Positions 2,774 through 6,676 of a stretch of DNA of 35,243 bases are shown here, one piece after another. A program made the translations under genes and the position numbers. Source of the stretch: a virus; the IMG/VR virus record IMGVR_UViG_3300045988_131290. One strand, given 5' to 3'. The stretch's first letter is position 1. Each line of letters begins with the position of its first letter. The notes under the pieces are model-generated. The model did no database searches, was not told the origin of the DNA, and saw only the letters and a list, made by a program, of their open reading frames with translations.

Positions 2774-3673
2774 TTATAACCAACCTTTCGCCTTTGCTAT
2801 TCTTCTTTTACCTTTATTATTTGAGTGCATCGGATTTTCTAAGAACATATAATTTTTATTATATCCTTCAATCGCCCTTCTAAAGTCAATTGATCCTCCA
2901 CCTGTAAACACTATTAATTTACCTAATCCTAAATTGAATGAATTTTTCATCTTATTCATTAACTCTTTTATGAACTCGTCCTCAAGTTCTTCATAAACTG
3001 GAATAACTCCCGTTTGTATATAATGTCTTACCTCATGTGTTTCTACATTTTGACCATGCTCATTATTGAATTTTGCTTTAACCCTATTGTAAAAATCTAT
3101 CGTTCCCGCTGGGAAGGTATCTTTATTTACAATTCTTTTGTTTTTATACTCTACGACGTTTGTTGTGCGTCCTCCAATATCTATTATTATTACATCTTTT
3201 GCTCTTTCTTCTTTAGGCAGCATATAGTAACTCGAGATACCCTCTCCTACGATTACCACATCTTCAATGTGAATTGTTTTTTCTTCCGTAGTTTTGAAAG
3301 TGAATGATTTTCCGATAAGATCTCCTTTGATCTTGTCGCTTTGTCCTAGTGAATTTATAGGTAAACCTAATATTAATCGGACGTGTTCTCCGTCTTTCAC
3401 TCCCGACTTATCTAGTCCCCAAAGTAAGTTTGGCATATAGTCTTTTTGAGCTTTATTATATTCACCGTCAAAATCTTTTTCGTATTCCATACGAAAAGCC
3501 TTATCTTTATATTCTAGTACTGTTTTCTCGCTTGTGTCTGCTGCGTCGTATTCTTCGAACGTCGATATAAACTGGAAGTCCTCTCCGTCAACTTGTCCTT
3601 TTGTGTTGTAGTTTCCTAAATCTATTATTCTTGTTACTATATTGTTTAATTCTTGTATTAAATTTTTTGTCAT
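2774..3673 (-). CDS. parM: ParM/Alp-family actin-like plasmid segregation ATPase
   Basis: Actin-fold motifs: phosphate-1 IIDLGNYNTKG, phosphate-2 IIIDIGGRTTNV, adenosine VFTGGGS. Confidence 0.85.
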   Translation of the reverse strand: MTKNLIQELNNIVTRIIDLGNYNTKGQVDGEDFQFISTFEEYDAADTSEKTVLEYKDKAFRMEYEKDFDGEYNKAQKDYMPNLLWGLDKSGVKDGEHVRLILGLPINSLGQSDKIKGDLIGKSFTFKTTEEKTIHIEDVVIVGEGISSYYMLPKEERAKDVIIIDIGGRTTNVVEYKNKRIVNKDTFPAGTIDFYNRVKAKFNNEHGQNVETHEVRHYIQTGVIPVYEELEDEFIKELMNKMKNSFNLGLGKLIVFTGGGSIDFRRAIEGYNKNYMFLENPMHSNNKGKRRIAKAKGWL

Positions 3674-3724
3674 TGTATTAATCCTCTTTTCTTTTATTTT
3701 AATTTTACCTGTTTTAAATTTTTA

Positions 3725-4177
3725 TTATCTTTCGTGTTGACGTTCTTCTTCGTCACAAAGTGCTTTAGTCATTTCTTTACGTTCTTTCCAACTTGCATAT
3801 TTGAATTTAGTAGAGTTTTCTAATTCCTTTTTTTGTCTTGCAAACTCTTTAAGGTGATTTTCTCTAGCGTTTAAATCATATATGAACTCGTCGCAGTTCG
3901 TACATTTTTTCCAAAGTCCAATTTCATGGTCGTGTTCTAAATCTCCTTCACATCTTTTACAATCGCTTAAACAAACTTTTGTATATTCTCCACAGTTTGA
4001 ACATTTAGCAAATACTGGTTCGACTTCTTCTGCGTCAACTTCATTTGCCCACTCTGTTAAAGTTCCACCAGTTATTGAATCGGCAATTCCGAATCCAATA
4101 CTTAAAGTTAATGTTGCAGCCATGCAAACACCATATCCTATTGCTATTTTCTTTAGTATCTTTTTATTAATTTTCAT
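3725..4177 (-). CDS. Membrane-anchored Cys-rich (double zinc-ribbon-like) protein
   Basis: N-terminal TM segment IAIGYGVCMAATLTLSIGFGI, then CSNCGEYTKVCLSDCKRC and CTNCDEF. It lies 51 bp upstream of parM with no obvious intervening promoter. Confidence 0.65.
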   Translation of the reverse strand: MKINKKILKKIAIGYGVCMAATLTLSIGFGIADSITGGTLTEWANEVDAEEVEPVFAKCSNCGEYTKVCLSDCKRCEGDLEHDHEIGLWKKCTNCDEFIYDLNARENHLKEFARQKKELENSTKFKYASWKERKEMTKALCDEEERQHER

Positions 4178-4232
4178 TTTTGGTCAATCCTCTATTATAT
4201 TTAGTAGTCGTCTGTCACCCGACTACTCTTAT

Positions 4233-4261
4233 ATAGTAACATATCCTGTTTTTTGCGTCAA
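4233..4261 (-). promoter_or_regulatory. Candidate promoter of the Zn-ribbon/parM/parR operon
   Basis: On the minus strand: -35 TTGACG (4261..4256), 17-nt spacer, TGt-extended -10 TACTAT (4238..4233). Confidence 0.45.
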
Positions 4262-4265
4262 TACT

Positions 4266-4400
4266 TTTCAACGTTATTTTTATGTTTTTTTATGTATAAC
4301 AACGTTGAAATATTGATATTACTATGTTTTAATTCAATTTTTCTAGGATTTTATTTATTATTTTAACGTTTATTTTATGTTTTTTAATGTCTTTTTATGT
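4266..4400. repeat. Candidate parC/operator repeats
   Basis: 10-bp inverted repeat TTTCAACGTT (4266..4275) / AACGTTGAAA (4301..4310). TTTTATGT repeats at 4278, 4288, 4373, 4393, with the variant ttttaatgt at 4382. Spacing within each cluster is 9-11 bp. Each cluster is adjacent to an AACGTT (4270, 4301, 4365). Confidence 0.45.
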
Positions 4401-4416
4401 TTTATACCGTTAATCA

Positions 4417-5526
4417 CTATTTTGGAATTTCTAAACCATGTGCTTTTGCATATTCTGTTATGGCATATCTTGTTACTTGCGATAGGATAACGTCCATACC
4501 CTGTTCTATAGCTAGTTTATACGCATCTTTATACGCATCATACATAGTGTTTACTTCATTAACACAAACGTCCACCACGTCCTCTGTGGCATCTTCTAAT
4601 ACTTCACTTGGTAAATCATAGTCTGATATATCCATTTGCCCCTCTACGTTGCCATTAGGAGTATAATAAATATCTTCTAAAGTAACATCATCATTTATCA
4701 TTGACTCGTCAAAAGCTCCAGCAGTAACTTCTACTGGATTTATTGAATGTCCGTTCTCGTCAAGTCCAGCAGCAGCATATTCTTCTTTTAACTTTTTAGT
4801 TAATACTTTAGTTTGAATCTTGTTTCTATATGTATCGGCATCTTTATTATATTGATCTAATGTTGTTATACCTTTTTCTTTAAGTGCTGCAAATGTAGCT
4901 TTTAAGTACGCATATTTCTTTTTAACGTCGTCAGATCCAGCAGCAGCGAACACTTCTCCAAATACTCCAAGATCAAAGTCGTTAACGTAAGATAATATTA
5001 GATCTTTTGTTTGGGGCATTACTCTTTTTTCTATGTGGCTATTTTTATAAAGATCAAGTAACGCAGTTTCCTTTTGATTATATGTATTTGATTTATGTTT
5101 TGGGGCAGCAGCACACGATTTAAGATCTTTCAGCGGTACTGGTAAAAAATTACCTTGTTCGTCTTGTATGAAGTCTTGTATTCCGTTTCTCTCGCTTACT
5201 GGTATTGGTTTCGCATATACGAAATATTTATACCCGCACATTCTCCCTTTAATATCTCTTAATCTTATTCTTGATATATAACCGAATTGTTCCAGCTCTT
5301 TAAGTCCCCTCGCTATTGAGTCCCTACCGTCTTTTAAAGATGATACTAAAGACTTAACATATATTTTATGTTTACTTGAATTTCTGTACTGTACGATCTT
5401 GCAATAGATCCCTATTGCCTTAGCTGATATATTTGTTTCATTCAAAATTGAATTATCTAATGTAGTATAATTACTTTCGTATGTCGAATATTCAAATGAA
5501 GTTTGGTTATAAAAATTATTATTCAT
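4417..5526 (-). CDS. Replication initiator / replisome organiser with a DnaD-like domain
   Basis: N-terminal winged-helix-like segment SIARGLKELEQFGYISRIR. DnaD/DnaB_2-like segment LILSYVNDFDLGVFGEVFAAAGSDDVKKKYAYLKATFAALKEKG. RBS GAGGAG. Confidence 0.7.
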   Translation of the reverse strand: MNNNFYNQTSFEYSTYESNYTTLDNSILNETNISAKAIGIYCKIVQYRNSSKHKIYVKSLVSSLKDGRDSIARGLKELEQFGYISRIRLRDIKGRMCGYKYFVYAKPIPVSERNGIQDFIQDEQGNFLPVPLKDLKSCAAAPKHKSNTYNQKETALLDLYKNSHIEKRVMPQTKDLILSYVNDFDLGVFGEVFAAAGSDDVKKKYAYLKATFAALKEKGITTLDQYNKDADTYRNKIQTKVLTKKLKEEYAAAGLDENGHSINPVEVTAGAFDESMINDDVTLEDIYYTPNGNVEGQMDISDYDLPSEVLEDATEDVVDVCVNEVNTMYDAYKDAYKLAIEQGMDVILSQVTRYAITEYAKAHGLEIPK

Positions 5527-5594
5527 AGTGCAATATCTCCTCTTTTATATTTCATATATTTTAAATTGTTTTAATCTCGAATCATTCTATGTAC

Positions 5595-5622
5595 TTGCAT
5601 TTATTTTTAAATGTGATATAAT
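5595..5622 (+). promoter_or_regulatory. Strong + strand promoter inside the rep leader
   Basis: -35 TTGCAT (5595..5600), 16-nt spacer, extended -10 TGaTATAAT (5614..5622). Confidence 0.6.
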
Positions 5623-5685
5623 TAAAGTACATTGTTTAAAAAAAAATCTTGTATTAAAATGTAGTGACTCCTTCACTACATTCTA

Positions 5686-5729
5686 ATGATAACACATATA
5701 ACGTTGAAGTCAATATCTCTAACGTTATA
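5686..5729 (-). promoter_or_regulatory. Candidate rep promoter embedded in an AACGTT inverted repeat
   Basis: On the minus strand: -35 TTGACT (5713..5708), 16-nt spacer, TGt-extended -10 TATCAT (5691..5686). The inverted repeat TATAACGTT (5697..5705) / AACGTTATA (5721..5729) brackets the -35. Confidence 0.5.
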
Positions 5730-5746
5730 AAAATTGTTTTAATCTT

Positions 5747-5775
5747 AAACCCGTTCTTAATTGAGCGGGTTTTTT
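5747..5775 (+). terminator. Plus-strand rho-independent terminator
   Basis: aaacccgttc (5747..5756) pairs with gagcgggttt (5763..5772) with one G-U pair, followed by a T-run to 5775. There is no T-run on the minus strand. Confidence 0.65.
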
Positions 5776-5798
5776 GTTGCAATTACTCACTTTTTGAA

Positions 5799-5834
5799 TA
5801 AAAAAGTCCCCCCACAAAATTATTCGTGGGGGGA
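5799..5834 (-). terminator. Strong rho-independent terminator after the 5858..6157 gene
   Basis: Minus strand: tccccccac, loop, gtgggggga, then cttttttatt. Confidence 0.8.
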
Positions 5835-5857: not shown

Positions 5858-6157
5858 TTATTTATCTATAGTTTCAAGTTCTTCAATGGCTTTTAACAGT
5901 ACTTCAAATATAGAACTTGGATTGTTGACATTATCTTTATTATCTTTTTTTACATCTTGGATCTCATCATGTATGCGTTGTATTTTTATAGCTTTTCTAA
6001 CATGGCTAAATACATTATCGAAATTATCCCCTGTTTCGTCGGCTACCGCTTGACATATCTTTGATGTTAGTATTGCTAATTCCTCTAATACATCACCGCA
6101 CCCACCGTTTAATTGTATTTCGCATGAACCTTTTTTTTCGATATATGCTTTGATCAT
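5858..6157 (-). CDS. Hypothetical protein (about 100 aa) in a self-contained transcription unit
   Basis: Preferred start is MIKAYIEKK at 6157 with a GGAG RBS. The candidate promoter at 6210..6238 lies inside the longer ORF-track version (to 6253). Confidence 0.6.
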   Translation of the reverse strand: MIKAYIEKKGSCEIQLNGGCGDVLEELAILTSKICQAVADETGDNFDNVFSHVRKAIKIQRIHDEIQDVKKDNKDNVNNPSSIFEVLLKAIEELETIDK

Positions 6158-6209
6158 CTTTTCAATCTCCTTAATTAAAAAATATGTGGTTTGCCTTTCG
6201 ACATTTAAG

Positions 6210-6238
6210 ATAATATCATAGAGACAAATAAAGTGCAA
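6210..6238 (-). promoter_or_regulatory. Candidate promoter for the 5858..6157 gene
   Basis: On the minus strand: -35 TTGCAC (6238..6233), 17-nt spacer, TGa-extended -10 TATTAT (6215..6210). Confidence 0.5.
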
Positions 6239-6465
6239 TACTTTTTTAGACATTTTATCTAATTTATTTAAGATTAAATATCTAGTATTAATTGAATCAA
6301 TAACCTTTTCTAAATGTGAGTAAAAAAGATCTACTTTGTATCAAATAAAATAATATCCCTTTGATAATCTAGTTATATATCGTATCCCTAAAATCATAAA
6401 AAATAGAAAAAAAGAAATTTATTGTTTTCGAAAAAATGAAGTGTCGCTCGGTACGAGCTTACAAC

Positions 6466-6549
6466 AACCGATATTTTAATTTTATAGTATTTTATTTTTA
6501 TTATATTTTATTTTTATGTCGTGGATAAACCGATATAGACATATCGGTT
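6466..6549. repeat. Origin-like element: three AACCGATAT boxes flanking a ~45-bp almost pure A/T tract
   Basis: AACCGATAT at 6466..6474 and 6528..6536, and inverted as ATATCGGTT at 6541..6549. TATTTTATTTTTA is directly repeated at 6488..6500 and 6504..6516. Confidence 0.45.
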
Positions 6550-6635
6550 ATAGGTATATCCGACAACGGTCAGTTCGAGTAATTCCAACGTGTGTACCGA
6601 AACGGAAAGTTCTTCGAGAATCCTTGTTTTTCGAA

Positions 6636-6666
6636 AATAAAAAATAGGGAGATCCGAAAATCTCCC
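6636..6666 (-). terminator. Rho-independent terminator of the lysis cassette / late operon
   Basis: gggagat (6647..6653) pairs with atctccc (6660..6666). On the minus strand a T-run follows (ctattttttatttt). Confidence 0.8.
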
Positions 6667-6676
6667 ATGTGTTTTA

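What the first reader, a model, noticed from the sequence alone, without database searches (positions are those of the whole stretch)
5595..5776. Putative antisense RNA (countertranscript) over the rep leader and promoter
The only strong + strand signals inside the minus-strand gene train are here. A near-consensus promoter (TTGCAT, 16 nt, TGaTATAAT) at 5595..5622 faces a + strand-specific intrinsic terminator at 5747..5775 (10-bp stem, T-run on the + strand only). The interval holds no credible ORF. It runs antisense through the predicted rep 5' leader and then across the rep promoter, and it includes a 10-bp hairpin at 5658..5682. The hairpin loop is CUCCU in the antisense RNA and AGGAG in the sense RNA. 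This layout matches countertranscript copy-number control known from Gram-positive plasmids such as the pT181 and pIP501 families. The CUCCU loop could also pair with the rep SD (GAGGAG at about 5535).
Basis: inference. Interest (0 to 1): 0.65.

Follow-up and report, generated by a model that had tools for sequence, protein, structure and literature searches.

The report
Antisense RNA gene facing rep promoter
A small non-coding RNA gene sits head-on against the promoter of the plasmid-type replication gene of a gut Clostridia phage-plasmid, and most likely throttles that gene to hold copy number, a well-known control principle in a previously undescribed layout.

Summary
The + strand carries the only TGnTATAAT promoter in the 35-kb window (5614-5622). 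An intrinsic terminator lies at 5747-5772. About 147 nt between them hold no conserved ORF and fold far better than shuffles (z = -7.35).

Six sequence variants of the same replicon (Rep 69-100% identical) keep the antisense promoter (74% invariant columns) and terminator (73%). These values match rep codon positions 1-2 (75-76%). rep third positions (26%) and the rest of the leader (21%) are much less conserved. G·U pairs make the terminator more stable on the + strand in every variant, and the first hairpin too in three of the relatives.

So a countertranscript gene is very likely real. It overlaps only the first 28-51 nt of the rep mRNA, then crosses the rep promoter. The window family has no leader attenuator, so it is not a pT181/pIP501-type system. 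More distant Rep relatives (33-41%) do have a classical attenuator.

The 5658-5682 hairpin occurs only in the window and its closest relative, and the CUCCU loop only in the window. The second hairpin is probably a by-product of two AACGTT protein-binding sites.

No expression data exist. This is a new variant of a known kind, of moderate interest.

The parts
5595..5622 (+). Promoter of the antisense RNA: -35 TTGCAT (5595-5600), 16-nt spacer, extended -10 TGaTATAAT (5614-5622).
   Evidence: Read from sequence. It is the only TGNTATAAT in the window. TG, TATAAT and the TTG of the -35 are invariant in six variants, with 74% invariant columns over 5595-5628. The tool scan finds the homologous promoter in L001.
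5629..5776 (+). Predicted countertranscript (ctRNA) of about 147 nt: 5' tail, SL1, SL2, linker, terminator.
   Evidence: Fold at -39.6 kcal/mol, z = -7.35. All six variants share the same architecture, and the ctRNA strand always folds better than the opposite strand. No Rfam family matches. No conserved ORF. The start and end points are predicted, not mapped.
5644..5658 (+). Invariant core of the single-stranded 5' tail, AAATCTTGTATTAAA. It is complementary to the 5' end of the rep mRNA.
   Evidence: 15 of 15 positions are invariant in six variants. In the sense RNA this segment forms the 5' strand of a long-range leader helix predicted in the MFE fold of five of the six variants and available as an alternative pairing in L005.
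5658..5682 (+). SL1: 10-bp hairpin with loop CUCCU (AGGAG in the sense RNA). Lineage-specific.
   Evidence: Present only in the window and L002, where the loop is GCUCAUU. The other variants have a different hairpin overlapping the rep -10, with G·U pairs valid only on the ctRNA strand.
5697..5729 (+). SL2: inverted repeat made of two AACGTT palindromes (5700-5705, 5721-5726) that flank the rep -35. Probably operator sites first and an RNA hairpin second.
   Evidence: Fold. Five of the 15 AACGTT sites in the window lie in the two intergenic regions next to rep. Relatives keep the two sites at the rep -35, and the three checked downstream of rep (L002, L005, L007) carry a further 2-6 AACGTT sites there.
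5686..5713 (-). rep promoter: TTGACT (5713..5708), 16 nt, TGtTATCAT (5694..5686). Predicted start about 5679.
   Evidence: Scan hit at 10 of 12 with TG. TTGAC and TGnTAnnAT are conserved in all variants.
5731..5745 (+). Single-stranded linker AAAUUGUUUUAAUCU between SL2 and the terminator. It is one copy of a perfect 15-nt direct repeat, so it is complementary in trans to the rep leader at 5577..5563.
   Evidence: Repeat D6. Only 1 of 1000 dinucleotide shuffles of the intergenic region reaches 15 nt. The variable base changes in both copies together: A/A in the window and L002, G/G in L001. In L001 the partner copy is the rep SD-AUG region, with a duplex of -18.1 kcal/mol.
5563..5577 (-). Partner copy of the 15-nt repeat in the rep leader (AGAUUAAAACAAUUU), 37-51 nt upstream of the rep AUG.
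5747..5778 (+). Intrinsic terminator of the ctRNA: AAACCCGTTC-TTAATT-GAGCGGGTTT followed by TTTGTT.
   Evidence: Scan hit. 73% invariant columns. One U·G or G·U pair in every variant, and its position shifts in L001. Stability is -14.7 kcal/mol on the + strand versus -9.8 on the - strand.
5527..5679 (-). Predicted rep leader of about 153 nt, with SD GAGGAG at 5542..5537. It contains no terminator.
4417..5526 (-). rep: 369-aa initiator with HTH_36 domain, DnaD-like.
   Evidence: Pfam HTH_36. PHROG 186 and 428, DnaD-like helicase loader or replication initiation protein. An Alp/ParM-like partition gene lies downstream at 2774-3673.

Best explanation
The element is a phage that also carries plasmid-type maintenance genes (rep plus an actin-like partition gene, no integrase found). 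The + strand of 5595-5778 encodes a non-coding countertranscript (ctRNA) of about 147 nt. It starts from an extended -10 promoter placed head-on, about 50 bp from the start site of the rep mRNA. It ends at an intrinsic terminator just upstream of the rep -35.

I propose it is the negative element of copy-number control for plasmid-mode replication, working in two coupled ways.

(a) RNA pairing. The unstructured, conserved 5' tail (plus SL1 in this lineage) is perfectly complementary to the first ~51 nt of the rep mRNA. That stretch is the 5' strand of a long-range helix in the rep leader, predicted in most variants. Pairing would open or replace this helix. The single-stranded linker (5731-5745) can also pair with a second leader site 37-51 nt before the AUG. 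The outcome would be lower Rep translation and/or duplex-triggered mRNA decay.

(b) Transcriptional interference. Every ctRNA transcription event must run across the rep -10 and -35 before terminating, so the two promoters compete directly.

The AACGTT palindromes around the rep -35 add a protein repressor layer, either Rep itself or a partner.

Shown from sequence: the signals, their conservation, the strand-specific structure, the complementarity, and the absence of an attenuator.

Inferred: that the RNA is made, that it represses rep, and which of the two routes dominates.
For: The promoter, terminator and fold are present as described.

Conservation in six variants: antisense promoter 74%, linker 75% and terminator 73% invariant columns. 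This compares with 26% at rep third codon positions, 21% in the rest of the leader, and 75-76% at rep codon positions 1-2.

Strand specificity: the terminator has one G·U pair in every variant, and its position moves in L001. The terminator is 3.4-4.9 kcal/mol more stable on the + strand. The first hairpin of L001, L007 and L008 is markedly more stable on that strand, and that of L007 folds only there. The whole-RNA MFE is lower on the ctRNA strand in 6 of 6 variants.

The 15-nt tail core is invariant and sits in a long-range leader helix predicted in the MFE of five of the six variants.

The 15-nt linker/leader repeat is improbable by chance, at 1 in 1000.

In relatives, the ctRNA tail or linker is also complementary to the rep translation start. 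The duplexes are -22.3 (L005), -21.0 (L007) and -18.1 (L001) kcal/mol. In L005 and L007 every other gene start except the one directly downstream of rep scores -4.6 to -14.8; no other gene starts were available for L001. This points to action on rep expression.

Rep homologues at 33-41% identity have their own antisense promoter and a structured ~110-nt antisense RNA; in L017 a scan also confirms a leader terminator just before the SD, and the same hairpin-plus-T-run is visible in the sequences of the other three. Antisense control of this initiator lineage is therefore recurrent.

Context fits plasmid-mode maintenance: a DnaD-like Rep, an Alp/ParM-like gene, no integrase seen, and a separate D5-type primase for phage replication.
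Against: There are no transcript data of any kind.

Only six closely related variants exist, and the covariation test is not significant (61 of 500 shuffles reach the observed score).

The -35 is weak, at 3 of 6.

The cis overlap lies 102-153 nt upstream of the AUG. Folding the leader with the overlap blocked reveals no SD-sequestering structure or terminator in the window. The step from pairing to repression is therefore not explained for this particular sequence.

SL2 and part of the conservation can be explained by DNA-level operator sites and by the rep promoter itself.

In the window itself the two strands fold almost equally well (-39.1 versus -38.3 kcal/mol).
Confidence: 0.6

Rival explanations
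1. The + strand RNA is real, but its product is not what regulates rep. The act of convergent transcription across the rep promoter does the regulating (pure transcriptional interference, or an insulator against read-through). Alternatively the RNA works mainly in trans on other targets, such as the translation starts of rep and of the first gene of the downstream partition operon.
For: The terminator lies beyond the rep promoter, so every transcript crosses the -10 and -35. Only a third of the RNA is antisense to rep RNA. In L005 and L007 the tail matches the start regions of rep and of the next gene about equally well: -22.3/-22.3 and -21.0/-19.6 kcal/mol.
Against: The 15-nt tail core is invariant although it is not a promoter element. 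Structured hairpins with strand-specific G·U pairs suggest selection on the RNA itself. The window and L002 lack the tail-to-start-site match: -6.9 and -9.8 kcal/mol.
Confidence: 0.17
2. The features are DNA-level elements of the replicon rather than an RNA gene. They would be operator or iteron sites for Rep or a partition adaptor, an AT-rich unwinding region, and a hairpin that terminates or insulates the upstream late genes. The + strand promoter match would be fortuitous or silent.
For: AACGTT sites cluster at both sides of rep, and more copies sit next to iteron-like repeats downstream of rep. Because AACGTT is a palindrome, two copies automatically give the SL2 hairpin. In L009 the upstream ORF runs into the terminator hairpin, so it may also serve the sense direction.
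Against: TG, TATAAT and TTG at correct spacing are invariant while neighbouring leader sequence diverges. The T-run and the G·U pairs favour the + strand. A separate strong - strand terminator already ends the upstream gene at 5834..5807. The variant hairpins of L001, L007 and L008 are markedly more stable on the + strand, and that of L007 folds only there.
Confidence: 0.13
3. The + strand transcript is a replication primer or origin-activating RNA, or it encodes a small peptide (for example a type I toxin-antitoxin module).
For: Some extrachromosomal prophages use RNA-based origins (abstract of PMC7157519). Short ORFs can be drawn in the region.
Against: A dedicated initiator gene is present. 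The candidate iteron array lies on the other side of rep. No ORF is conserved, none has an SD, and L001 has none of 8 or more codons.
Confidence: 0.04

Closest known systems
pSK41 RNAI (staphylococcal RepA_N plasmids)
   Same: This is an ~83-nt countertranscript with an unstructured 5' tail and stem-loops. It is complementary to the rep leader about 100 nt upstream of the translation start and acts at a distance (PMC5703833). Here the overlap lies 102-153 nt upstream of the AUG, and the RNA has a ~29-nt tail plus hairpins.
   Different: The initiator family differs (DnaD-like/HTH_36, not RepA_N). No ctRNA-induced RBS-sequestering stem-loop could be predicted. The RNA extends across the rep promoter. 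There is no sequence similarity.
pIP501 RNAIII/CopR and pT181 RNAI (countertranscript-driven attenuation)
   Same: There is a convergent antisense promoter in the rep leader. In pIP501 there is also interplay of convergent transcription with a repressor that binds at the rep promoter (PMC5703833). The more distant Rep relatives L016-L019 and the P. sordellii plasmid L028 look like this type. All four metagenomic loci show the hairpin-plus-T-run before the SD in sequence, confirmed by scan in L017. L017 and L019 also have an HTH_XRE gene directly upstream.
   Different: The window family has no leader terminator, no pre-emptor and no Cop gene upstream. The ctRNA ends upstream of the rep promoter, not inside the leader.
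pMV158 RNAII
   Same: The interaction is started by a single-stranded 5' tail rather than loop-loop kissing, and translation is inhibited (PMC5703833; title and abstract of PMC4485353). Relatives L001, L005 and L007 have ctRNA segments complementary to the rep SD-AUG region.
   Different: RNAII is cis-encoded over the region next to the repB start site. Here the cis overlap is at the far 5' end of a 153-nt leader, and in the window no match to the start site exists.
IS10 RNA-OUT/RNA-IN and coliphage 186 pR/pL
   Same: The promoters face each other with start sites a few tens of bp apart. The two RNAs overlap only at their 5' ends. The antisense RNA or polymerase runs over the target promoter, so interference and pairing can both contribute.
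   Different: In IS10 the overlap includes the ribosome-binding site. In 186 no RNA pairing role is invoked. Neither controls a replication initiator.

Membership tests
pT181/pIP501-type countertranscript-driven transcriptional attenuation | An antisense RNA is transcribed from within the rep leader and is complementary to it. | tested here: met
   Predicted convergent promoters give a 51-nt overlap (5629-5679). The overlap is 28-50 nt in relatives. These are predictions only.
pT181/pIP501-type countertranscript-driven transcriptional attenuation | A rho-independent terminator (attenuator) lies immediately 5' of the rep start codon. | tested here: not met
   There is no - strand terminator between 5527 and 5679, and none in L008 or L001. 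For contrast, L017 has one at 2951-2978, just before the ATG at 3001.
pT181/pIP501-type countertranscript-driven transcriptional attenuation | A pre-emptor or antiterminator pairing exists that the ctRNA prevents. | tested here: not met
   Free and overlap-blocked folds of the leader show no terminator/antiterminator alternative.
pIP501 (Inc18) dual control | A small HTH_XRE Cop repressor gene lies directly upstream of rep. | tested here: not met
   The upstream ORF 5858-6253 (131 aa) has no Pfam or PHROG match. The upstream gene differs among close relatives. It is present in distant relatives L017 and L019.
pSK41-type RNAI control | The ctRNA target lies about 100 nt upstream of the translation start, and the RNA has a 5' tail plus stem-loops. 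| tested here: met
   The overlap lies 102-153 nt before the AUG. The fold shows a tail plus SL1, SL2 and a terminator.
pSK41-type RNAI control | ctRNA binding induces a stem-loop that sequesters the ribosome-binding site. | tested here: inconclusive
   Constrained MFE folding shows no such structure in the window. MFE prediction in a very AT-rich leader is weak evidence either way.
pSK41-type RNAI control | The initiator belongs to the RepA_N family. | tested here: not met
   Only HTH_36 and DnaD-like matches were found.
pMV158 RNAII-type translational control | The antisense RNA is complementary to the region at or next to the rep ribosome-binding site. | tested here: not met
   In the window the tail-to-TIR and linker-to-TIR duplexes are -6.9 and -9.4 kcal/mol, not above other genes. 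Only the SL1 loop CUCCU matches the SD (-14.1, marginal). The feature is met in trans in L001, L005 and L007.
Convergent-promoter transcriptional interference | Promoters face each other, and the antisense transcript traverses the target promoter before terminating. | tested here: met
   The start sites are about 50 bp apart. The terminator at 5747-5772 lies 34 bp beyond the rep -35. The same geometry is seen in all six variants. Actual interference is not testable here.
Any curated RNA family (Rfam 15, including ctRNA_pND324, ctRNA_pT181, ctRNA_pGA1) | A match to the covariance model at the gathering score. | tested here: not met
   There are no hits at gathering thresholds in the whole window. 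Only sub-threshold terminator-like noise appears at E values up to 10.

The most novel reading that the evidence does not exclude
The countertranscript may work mainly as a trans-acting RNA made from a decoy. In relatives L005 and L007 the 5' end of the rep leader is a degenerate copy of the rep translation-start cassette (AAUACAAGAU - SD - UUnnAAACAAUG) that lacks the SD. The antisense RNA templated there is therefore complementary to both flanks of the real SD of rep. It is equally complementary to the start site of the first gene of the downstream operon that carries the actin-like partition gene.

The two copies change together between lineages: UUUUAAACAAUG in L005 versus CUAAAACAAUG in L007. 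One small RNA would then couple replication and partition gene expression. The window lineage would have rewired this through a 15-nt linker/leader repeat and an anti-SD hairpin loop.
Probability: 0.2. Interest if true: 0.65.

Novelty: new variant of a known kind. Interest (0 to 1): 0.45.

Why it matters
Phage-plasmids must hold a stable low copy number as prophages, yet how Gram-positive ones do so is essentially undescribed. I found no paper describing antisense control of rep in such elements.

This locus offers a compact, testable module. It has two head-on promoters, a ~147-nt RNA and operator-like palindromes. RNA pairing and promoter interference can be separated genetically.

The target core is invariant across all six variants. 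This predicts that these gut phage-plasmids belong to one incompatibility group and would exclude each other.

The contrast with more distant Rep relatives also matters. Those relatives use a textbook attenuator. Together the two groups show how one initiator lineage swaps antisense mechanisms. A cultured Paraclostridium sordellii plasmid is available for experiments on the distant type.

Tried and rejected
Rfam searches found no family, either at gathering thresholds on the whole window or at permissive E-values on the intergenic regions of the window and L017.

DNA similarity searches of the region against phage and plasmid records found nothing. The genome collection held neither a Rep relative nor the conserved motif.

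The single metagenome scan returned only sequences identical to variants already in hand, so diversity could not be increased. The viral collection held one member.

The covariation test on the six variants gave 91% of cells paired but was not significant. I therefore rely on conservation and strand-specific G·U pairs instead.

MAFFT/RNAalifold on the four distant ctRNAs mis-aligned the variable hairpin and gave little. The single-sequence folds agree with one another.

A search for a leader attenuator or an SD-sequestering switch in the window was negative.

RNAduplex of the non-overlapping ctRNA against the leader gave over-long duplexes. Only the perfect cores are meaningful.

The small-peptide or toxin reading is rejected. 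A second rep promoter downstream of the antisense promoter (5611..5584, 9 of 12) is rejected because it is not conserved.

TAACGTTA as a window-wide regulon motif is rejected because the exact 8-mer occurs only once. The looser AACGTT clustering is retained.

Full report
**Context**

The window is a 33% G+C, 35-kb phage genome with nearly all genes on the - strand.
- It has tail, M14-peptidase tail fibre, amidase and terminase genes.
- It has a D5-type primase, an SNF2 helicase, ThyX and a CI-like HTH gene.
- Downstream of the lysis genes lies a plasmid-type module. It comprises a 369-aa initiator at 4417-5526 and an actin-like (Alp/ParM) partition gene at 2774-3673. The initiator is HTH_36 in Pfam and a DnaD-like helicase loader or replication initiation protein in PHROGs.
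- No integrase was seen among the proteins scanned.
- The closest named relatives by terminase (51-57% identity) are Clostridium tetani and C. botulinum phages and a 36.6-kb Crassaminicella plasmid.

I therefore treat it as a phage-plasmid of a gut Clostridia host. The finding lies in the 331-bp gap between a strong - strand terminator (5834..5807) and the rep start codon.

**Observation**

- + strand promoter: TTGCAT (5595-5600), 16 nt, TGaTATAAT (5614-5622).
- 10-bp hairpin at 5658-5682 with loop CTCCT.
- + strand terminator at 5747-5772 followed by a T-run.

The -35 is poor (3 of 6), so the scan did not list the promoter. The extended -10 is perfect. TGNTATAAT occurs only once in the whole window on either strand, where shuffles give 4.07.

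The facing rep promoter is TTGACT-16-TGtTATCAT (5713..5686). This places the rep start near 5679 and the antisense start near 5629. The two RNAs would share about 51 nt, after which the + transcript crosses the rep -10 and -35 and stops 34 bp beyond the -35.

The 152-nt RNA folds into a 5' tail and three stem-loops at -39.6 kcal/mol (z = -7.35 against dinucleotide shuffles). No conserved ORF exists.

**Relatives**

Protein searches found Rep relatives only in metagenome assemblies, not in phage, plasmid or reference-genome collections.

Fetching their contigs gave six distinct versions of the region upstream of rep:

| Variant | Rep identity to window |
|---|---|
| window | 100% |
| L002/L003 | 87% |
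| L001/L004 | 77% |
| L005 | 71% |
| L007 | 69% |
| L008 group and L009 | 69% |

These lie on 37-40-kb contigs with the same phage-plus-partition gene order. The gene upstream of rep differs among them: a 131-aa ORF, a 93-aa ORF, or a PAPS reductase.

A motif scan of the metagenome collection returned only copies of these variants. The family is narrow.

**Conservation**

The table gives invariant columns in the six-way alignment.

| Segment | Invariant columns |
|---|---|
| Antisense promoter (5595-5628) | 74% |
| Linker before the terminator | 75% |
| Terminator plus T-run | 73% |
| SL2 / rep -35 | 62% |
| rep codon positions 1 and 2 | 75% and 76% |
| rep third codon positions | 26% |
| Leader between the antisense promoter and the SD | 21% |
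| SL1 | 15% |

Within the promoter, the invariant bases are the TG, the TATAAT and the TTG of the -35 at constant spacing. This is the pattern expected of a working promoter and terminator, not of neutral spacer.

**Strand of the structure**

Every variant folds as tail-SL1-SL2-terminator.

The terminator stem has one wobble pair in every variant. It is U·G in five variants. In L001 that pair becomes U-A and the neighbouring G-C becomes G·U. On the opposite strand these would be A·C mismatches. The hairpin is accordingly 3.4-4.9 kcal/mol more stable on the + strand.

The window-type SL1 is a 13-nt insertion shared only with L002. The other variants instead have a hairpin over the rep -10:
- L005: UAUGCUAA/UUAGCAUA
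- L001: UAUGUUAA/UUAGCAUA
- L007: UGUGUUAA/UUAGCAUG
- L008: the same 5' arm as L007, with a 3' arm ending CACG

In L001, L007 and L008 this hairpin is markedly more stable on the antisense-RNA strand, and in L007 it folds only there.

With six related sequences a formal covariation test is not significant (61 of 500 shuffles). I count this as suggestive only. In the window itself the two strands fold almost equally well (-39.1 versus -38.3 kcal/mol).

**What is probably not RNA function**

SL2 consists of two AACGTT palindromes flanking the rep -35. Five of the 15 AACGTT sites in the window lie in the two gaps flanking rep, about 1.6% of the sequence.

The gap downstream of rep (4178-4416) has three AACGTT sites embedded in 30-nt iteron-like repeats, followed by a promoter. 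The relatives checked (L002, L005, L007) keep 2-6 sites there. These look like binding sites for Rep or a partition or regulatory protein.

Two palindromes automatically make a hairpin. SL2 therefore cannot be used as evidence for the RNA, and it suggests a protein repressor layer on the rep promoter.

**Mechanism**

The rep leader is 145-165 nt long in all variants and has no terminator. pT181/pIP501-type attenuation is therefore excluded for this family.

The invariant 15-nt tail core (AAAUCUUGUAUUAAA, 5644-5658) is antisense to the 5' strand of a long-range helix. That helix appears in the MFE fold of five of the six leader variants and is available as an alternative pairing in L005. ctRNA binding would open it.

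Folding with the overlap blocked did not reveal an SD-sequestering structure in the window. The downstream consequence (translation, decay or both) remains inferred.

Two further observations point to action on rep expression.

First, the ctRNA linker (5731-5745) is one copy of a perfect 15-nt direct repeat. The other copy lies in the rep leader 37-51 nt before the AUG. This gives 15 nt of trans complementarity, and only 1 of 1000 shuffles reaches that length. The variable base changes in both copies together between the window/L002 and L001. In L001 the partner copy is the SD-AUG region itself (-18.1 kcal/mol).

Second, in L005 and L007 the ctRNA tail matches both flanks of the rep SD, at -22.3 and -21.0 kcal/mol. 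It also matches the start of the next gene, at -22.3 and -19.6. All other gene starts in those loci score -4.6 to -14.8.

The window and L002 lack this tail match (-6.9 and -9.8). In the window the SL1 loop CUCCU faces the SD, but only marginally better than at other genes (-14.1 versus up to -12.4). L002 has a different loop.

Independently of pairing, the geometry forces every antisense transcription event across the rep promoter. Transcriptional interference is therefore a built-in component.

**Distant relatives**

Rep homologues at 33-41% identity (L016-L019) have a different, textbook arrangement:
- an 11/12 sense promoter;
- an extended -10 antisense promoter;
- a ~110-nt antisense RNA ending exactly at the sense start, with a closing stem containing a G·U pair and two internal hairpins whose sequences differ but whose shapes are kept;
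- a 12-bp hairpin plus T-run immediately before the SD, confirmed by scan in L017 and visible in the sequence of the other three;
- an upstream AUAUCAAG segment in three of the four loci (L017-L019) that could act as antiterminator;
- in L017 and L019, an HTH_XRE gene directly upstream, as in pIP501 (comparison with PMC5703833).

This type is 77% identical over 86% of its length to a 33.9-kb circular ParM-bearing plasmid of Paraclostridium sordellii.

Antisense control thus recurs in this initiator lineage with at least two architectures. This raises my confidence that the window's + strand unit is a regulator of rep.

**Comparison with known systems**

- **Overall logic.** It is that of Gram-positive plasmid countertranscripts.
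- **pSK41 RNAI.** By position of the target (about 100 nt before the start site) and RNA shape (5' tail plus hairpins), this is the nearest match (PMC5703833). The initiator family differs, and the induced RBS hairpin could not be shown.
- **IS10 RNA-OUT/RNA-IN and 186 pR/pL.** By geometry (5'-to-5' overlap, antisense RNA running over the target promoter) the locus resembles these systems. This comparison rests on my own knowledge and was not checked here.
- **Rfam.** It matches no Rfam family.
- **Literature.** I found no paper describing it.

I rate it a new variant of a known kind.

**Verdict**

| Question | Assessment |
|---|---|
| Observation | confirmed |
| Interpretation | partly supported |
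| A real antisense RNA gene is present | about 0.8 |
| It represses rep as described | about 0.6 |
| Interest | moderate (0.45) |

This is a solid, experimentally tractable new copy-control module for phage-plasmids, but not a surprise in kind.

Noticed in passing
window 4178-4416 (- strand orientation; AACGTT at 4270, 4301, 4365; repeats 4266-4295/4361-4390 and 4277-4306/4382-4411): The gap downstream of rep holds iteron-like 30-nt repeats (ACATAAAAA...AACGTT), three AACGTT palindromes and a promoter (TTGACG-17-TACTAT) for the operon that contains the actin-like partition gene. Relatives L002, L005 and L007 carry 2-6 AACGTT sites in the same place. It is a candidate origin or partition centromere, and it shares its site with the rep promoter.
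   Followed up: partly
window 4204-4226 (- strand): The hairpin GTAGTCGGGTGACAGACGACTAC lies in the leader of the operon downstream of rep. It is kept, with a few substitutions in the stem and loop, in L002, L005 and L007. Its function is unknown.
   Followed up: no
L005 3970-4003 and 5300-5333; L007 3970-4003 and 5293-5326: The translation-start cassette AAUACAAGAU-AGGAG-AUUnnAAACAAUG is duplicated before rep and before the next gene. The two copies are essentially identical in L005. A degenerate, SD-less copy forms the 5' end of the rep leader, where the antisense RNA is templated.
   Followed up: partly
L016 1280-1611, L017 2670-3000, L018 1660-1988, L019 2670-3000, L028 3001-3296: Rep relatives at 33-41% identity carry an unannotated ~110-nt structured antisense RNA plus a classical leader attenuator. 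L017 and L019 also have an HTH_XRE gene upstream. One instance sits on a cultured Paraclostridium sordellii plasmid (NZ_CP124276.1). There is no Rfam match.
   Followed up: partly
window, whole (both strands): TGNTATAAT occurs once where shuffles give about 4, and that one site is the antisense promoter. This may reflect selection against stray strong promoters in a one-strand gene train.
   Followed up: no
window 6254-6676: A 423-bp non-coding gap lies between the holin-like ORF and the 131-aa ORF. It contains long-range inverted repeats (6417-6435/6627-6645) and a two-way terminator-like hairpin at 6647-6666. It was not examined further.
   Followed up: no
L009 3740-3771: In this variant the upstream PAPS-reductase ORF (2846-3769) runs into the antisense terminator hairpin, and the separate upstream terminator is missing. 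The hairpin may therefore also stop sense-direction transcription there.
   Followed up: no
window 5589-5601 / 5620-5632 and 5599-5611 / 5635-5647: Inverted repeats (ATGTACTT...AAGTACAT and ATTTATTTTTAAA...TTTAAAAAAAAAT) bracket the antisense promoter in the window and L002 but not in the other variants. In the sense RNA they form the apical part of the long leader hairpin.
   Followed up: partly
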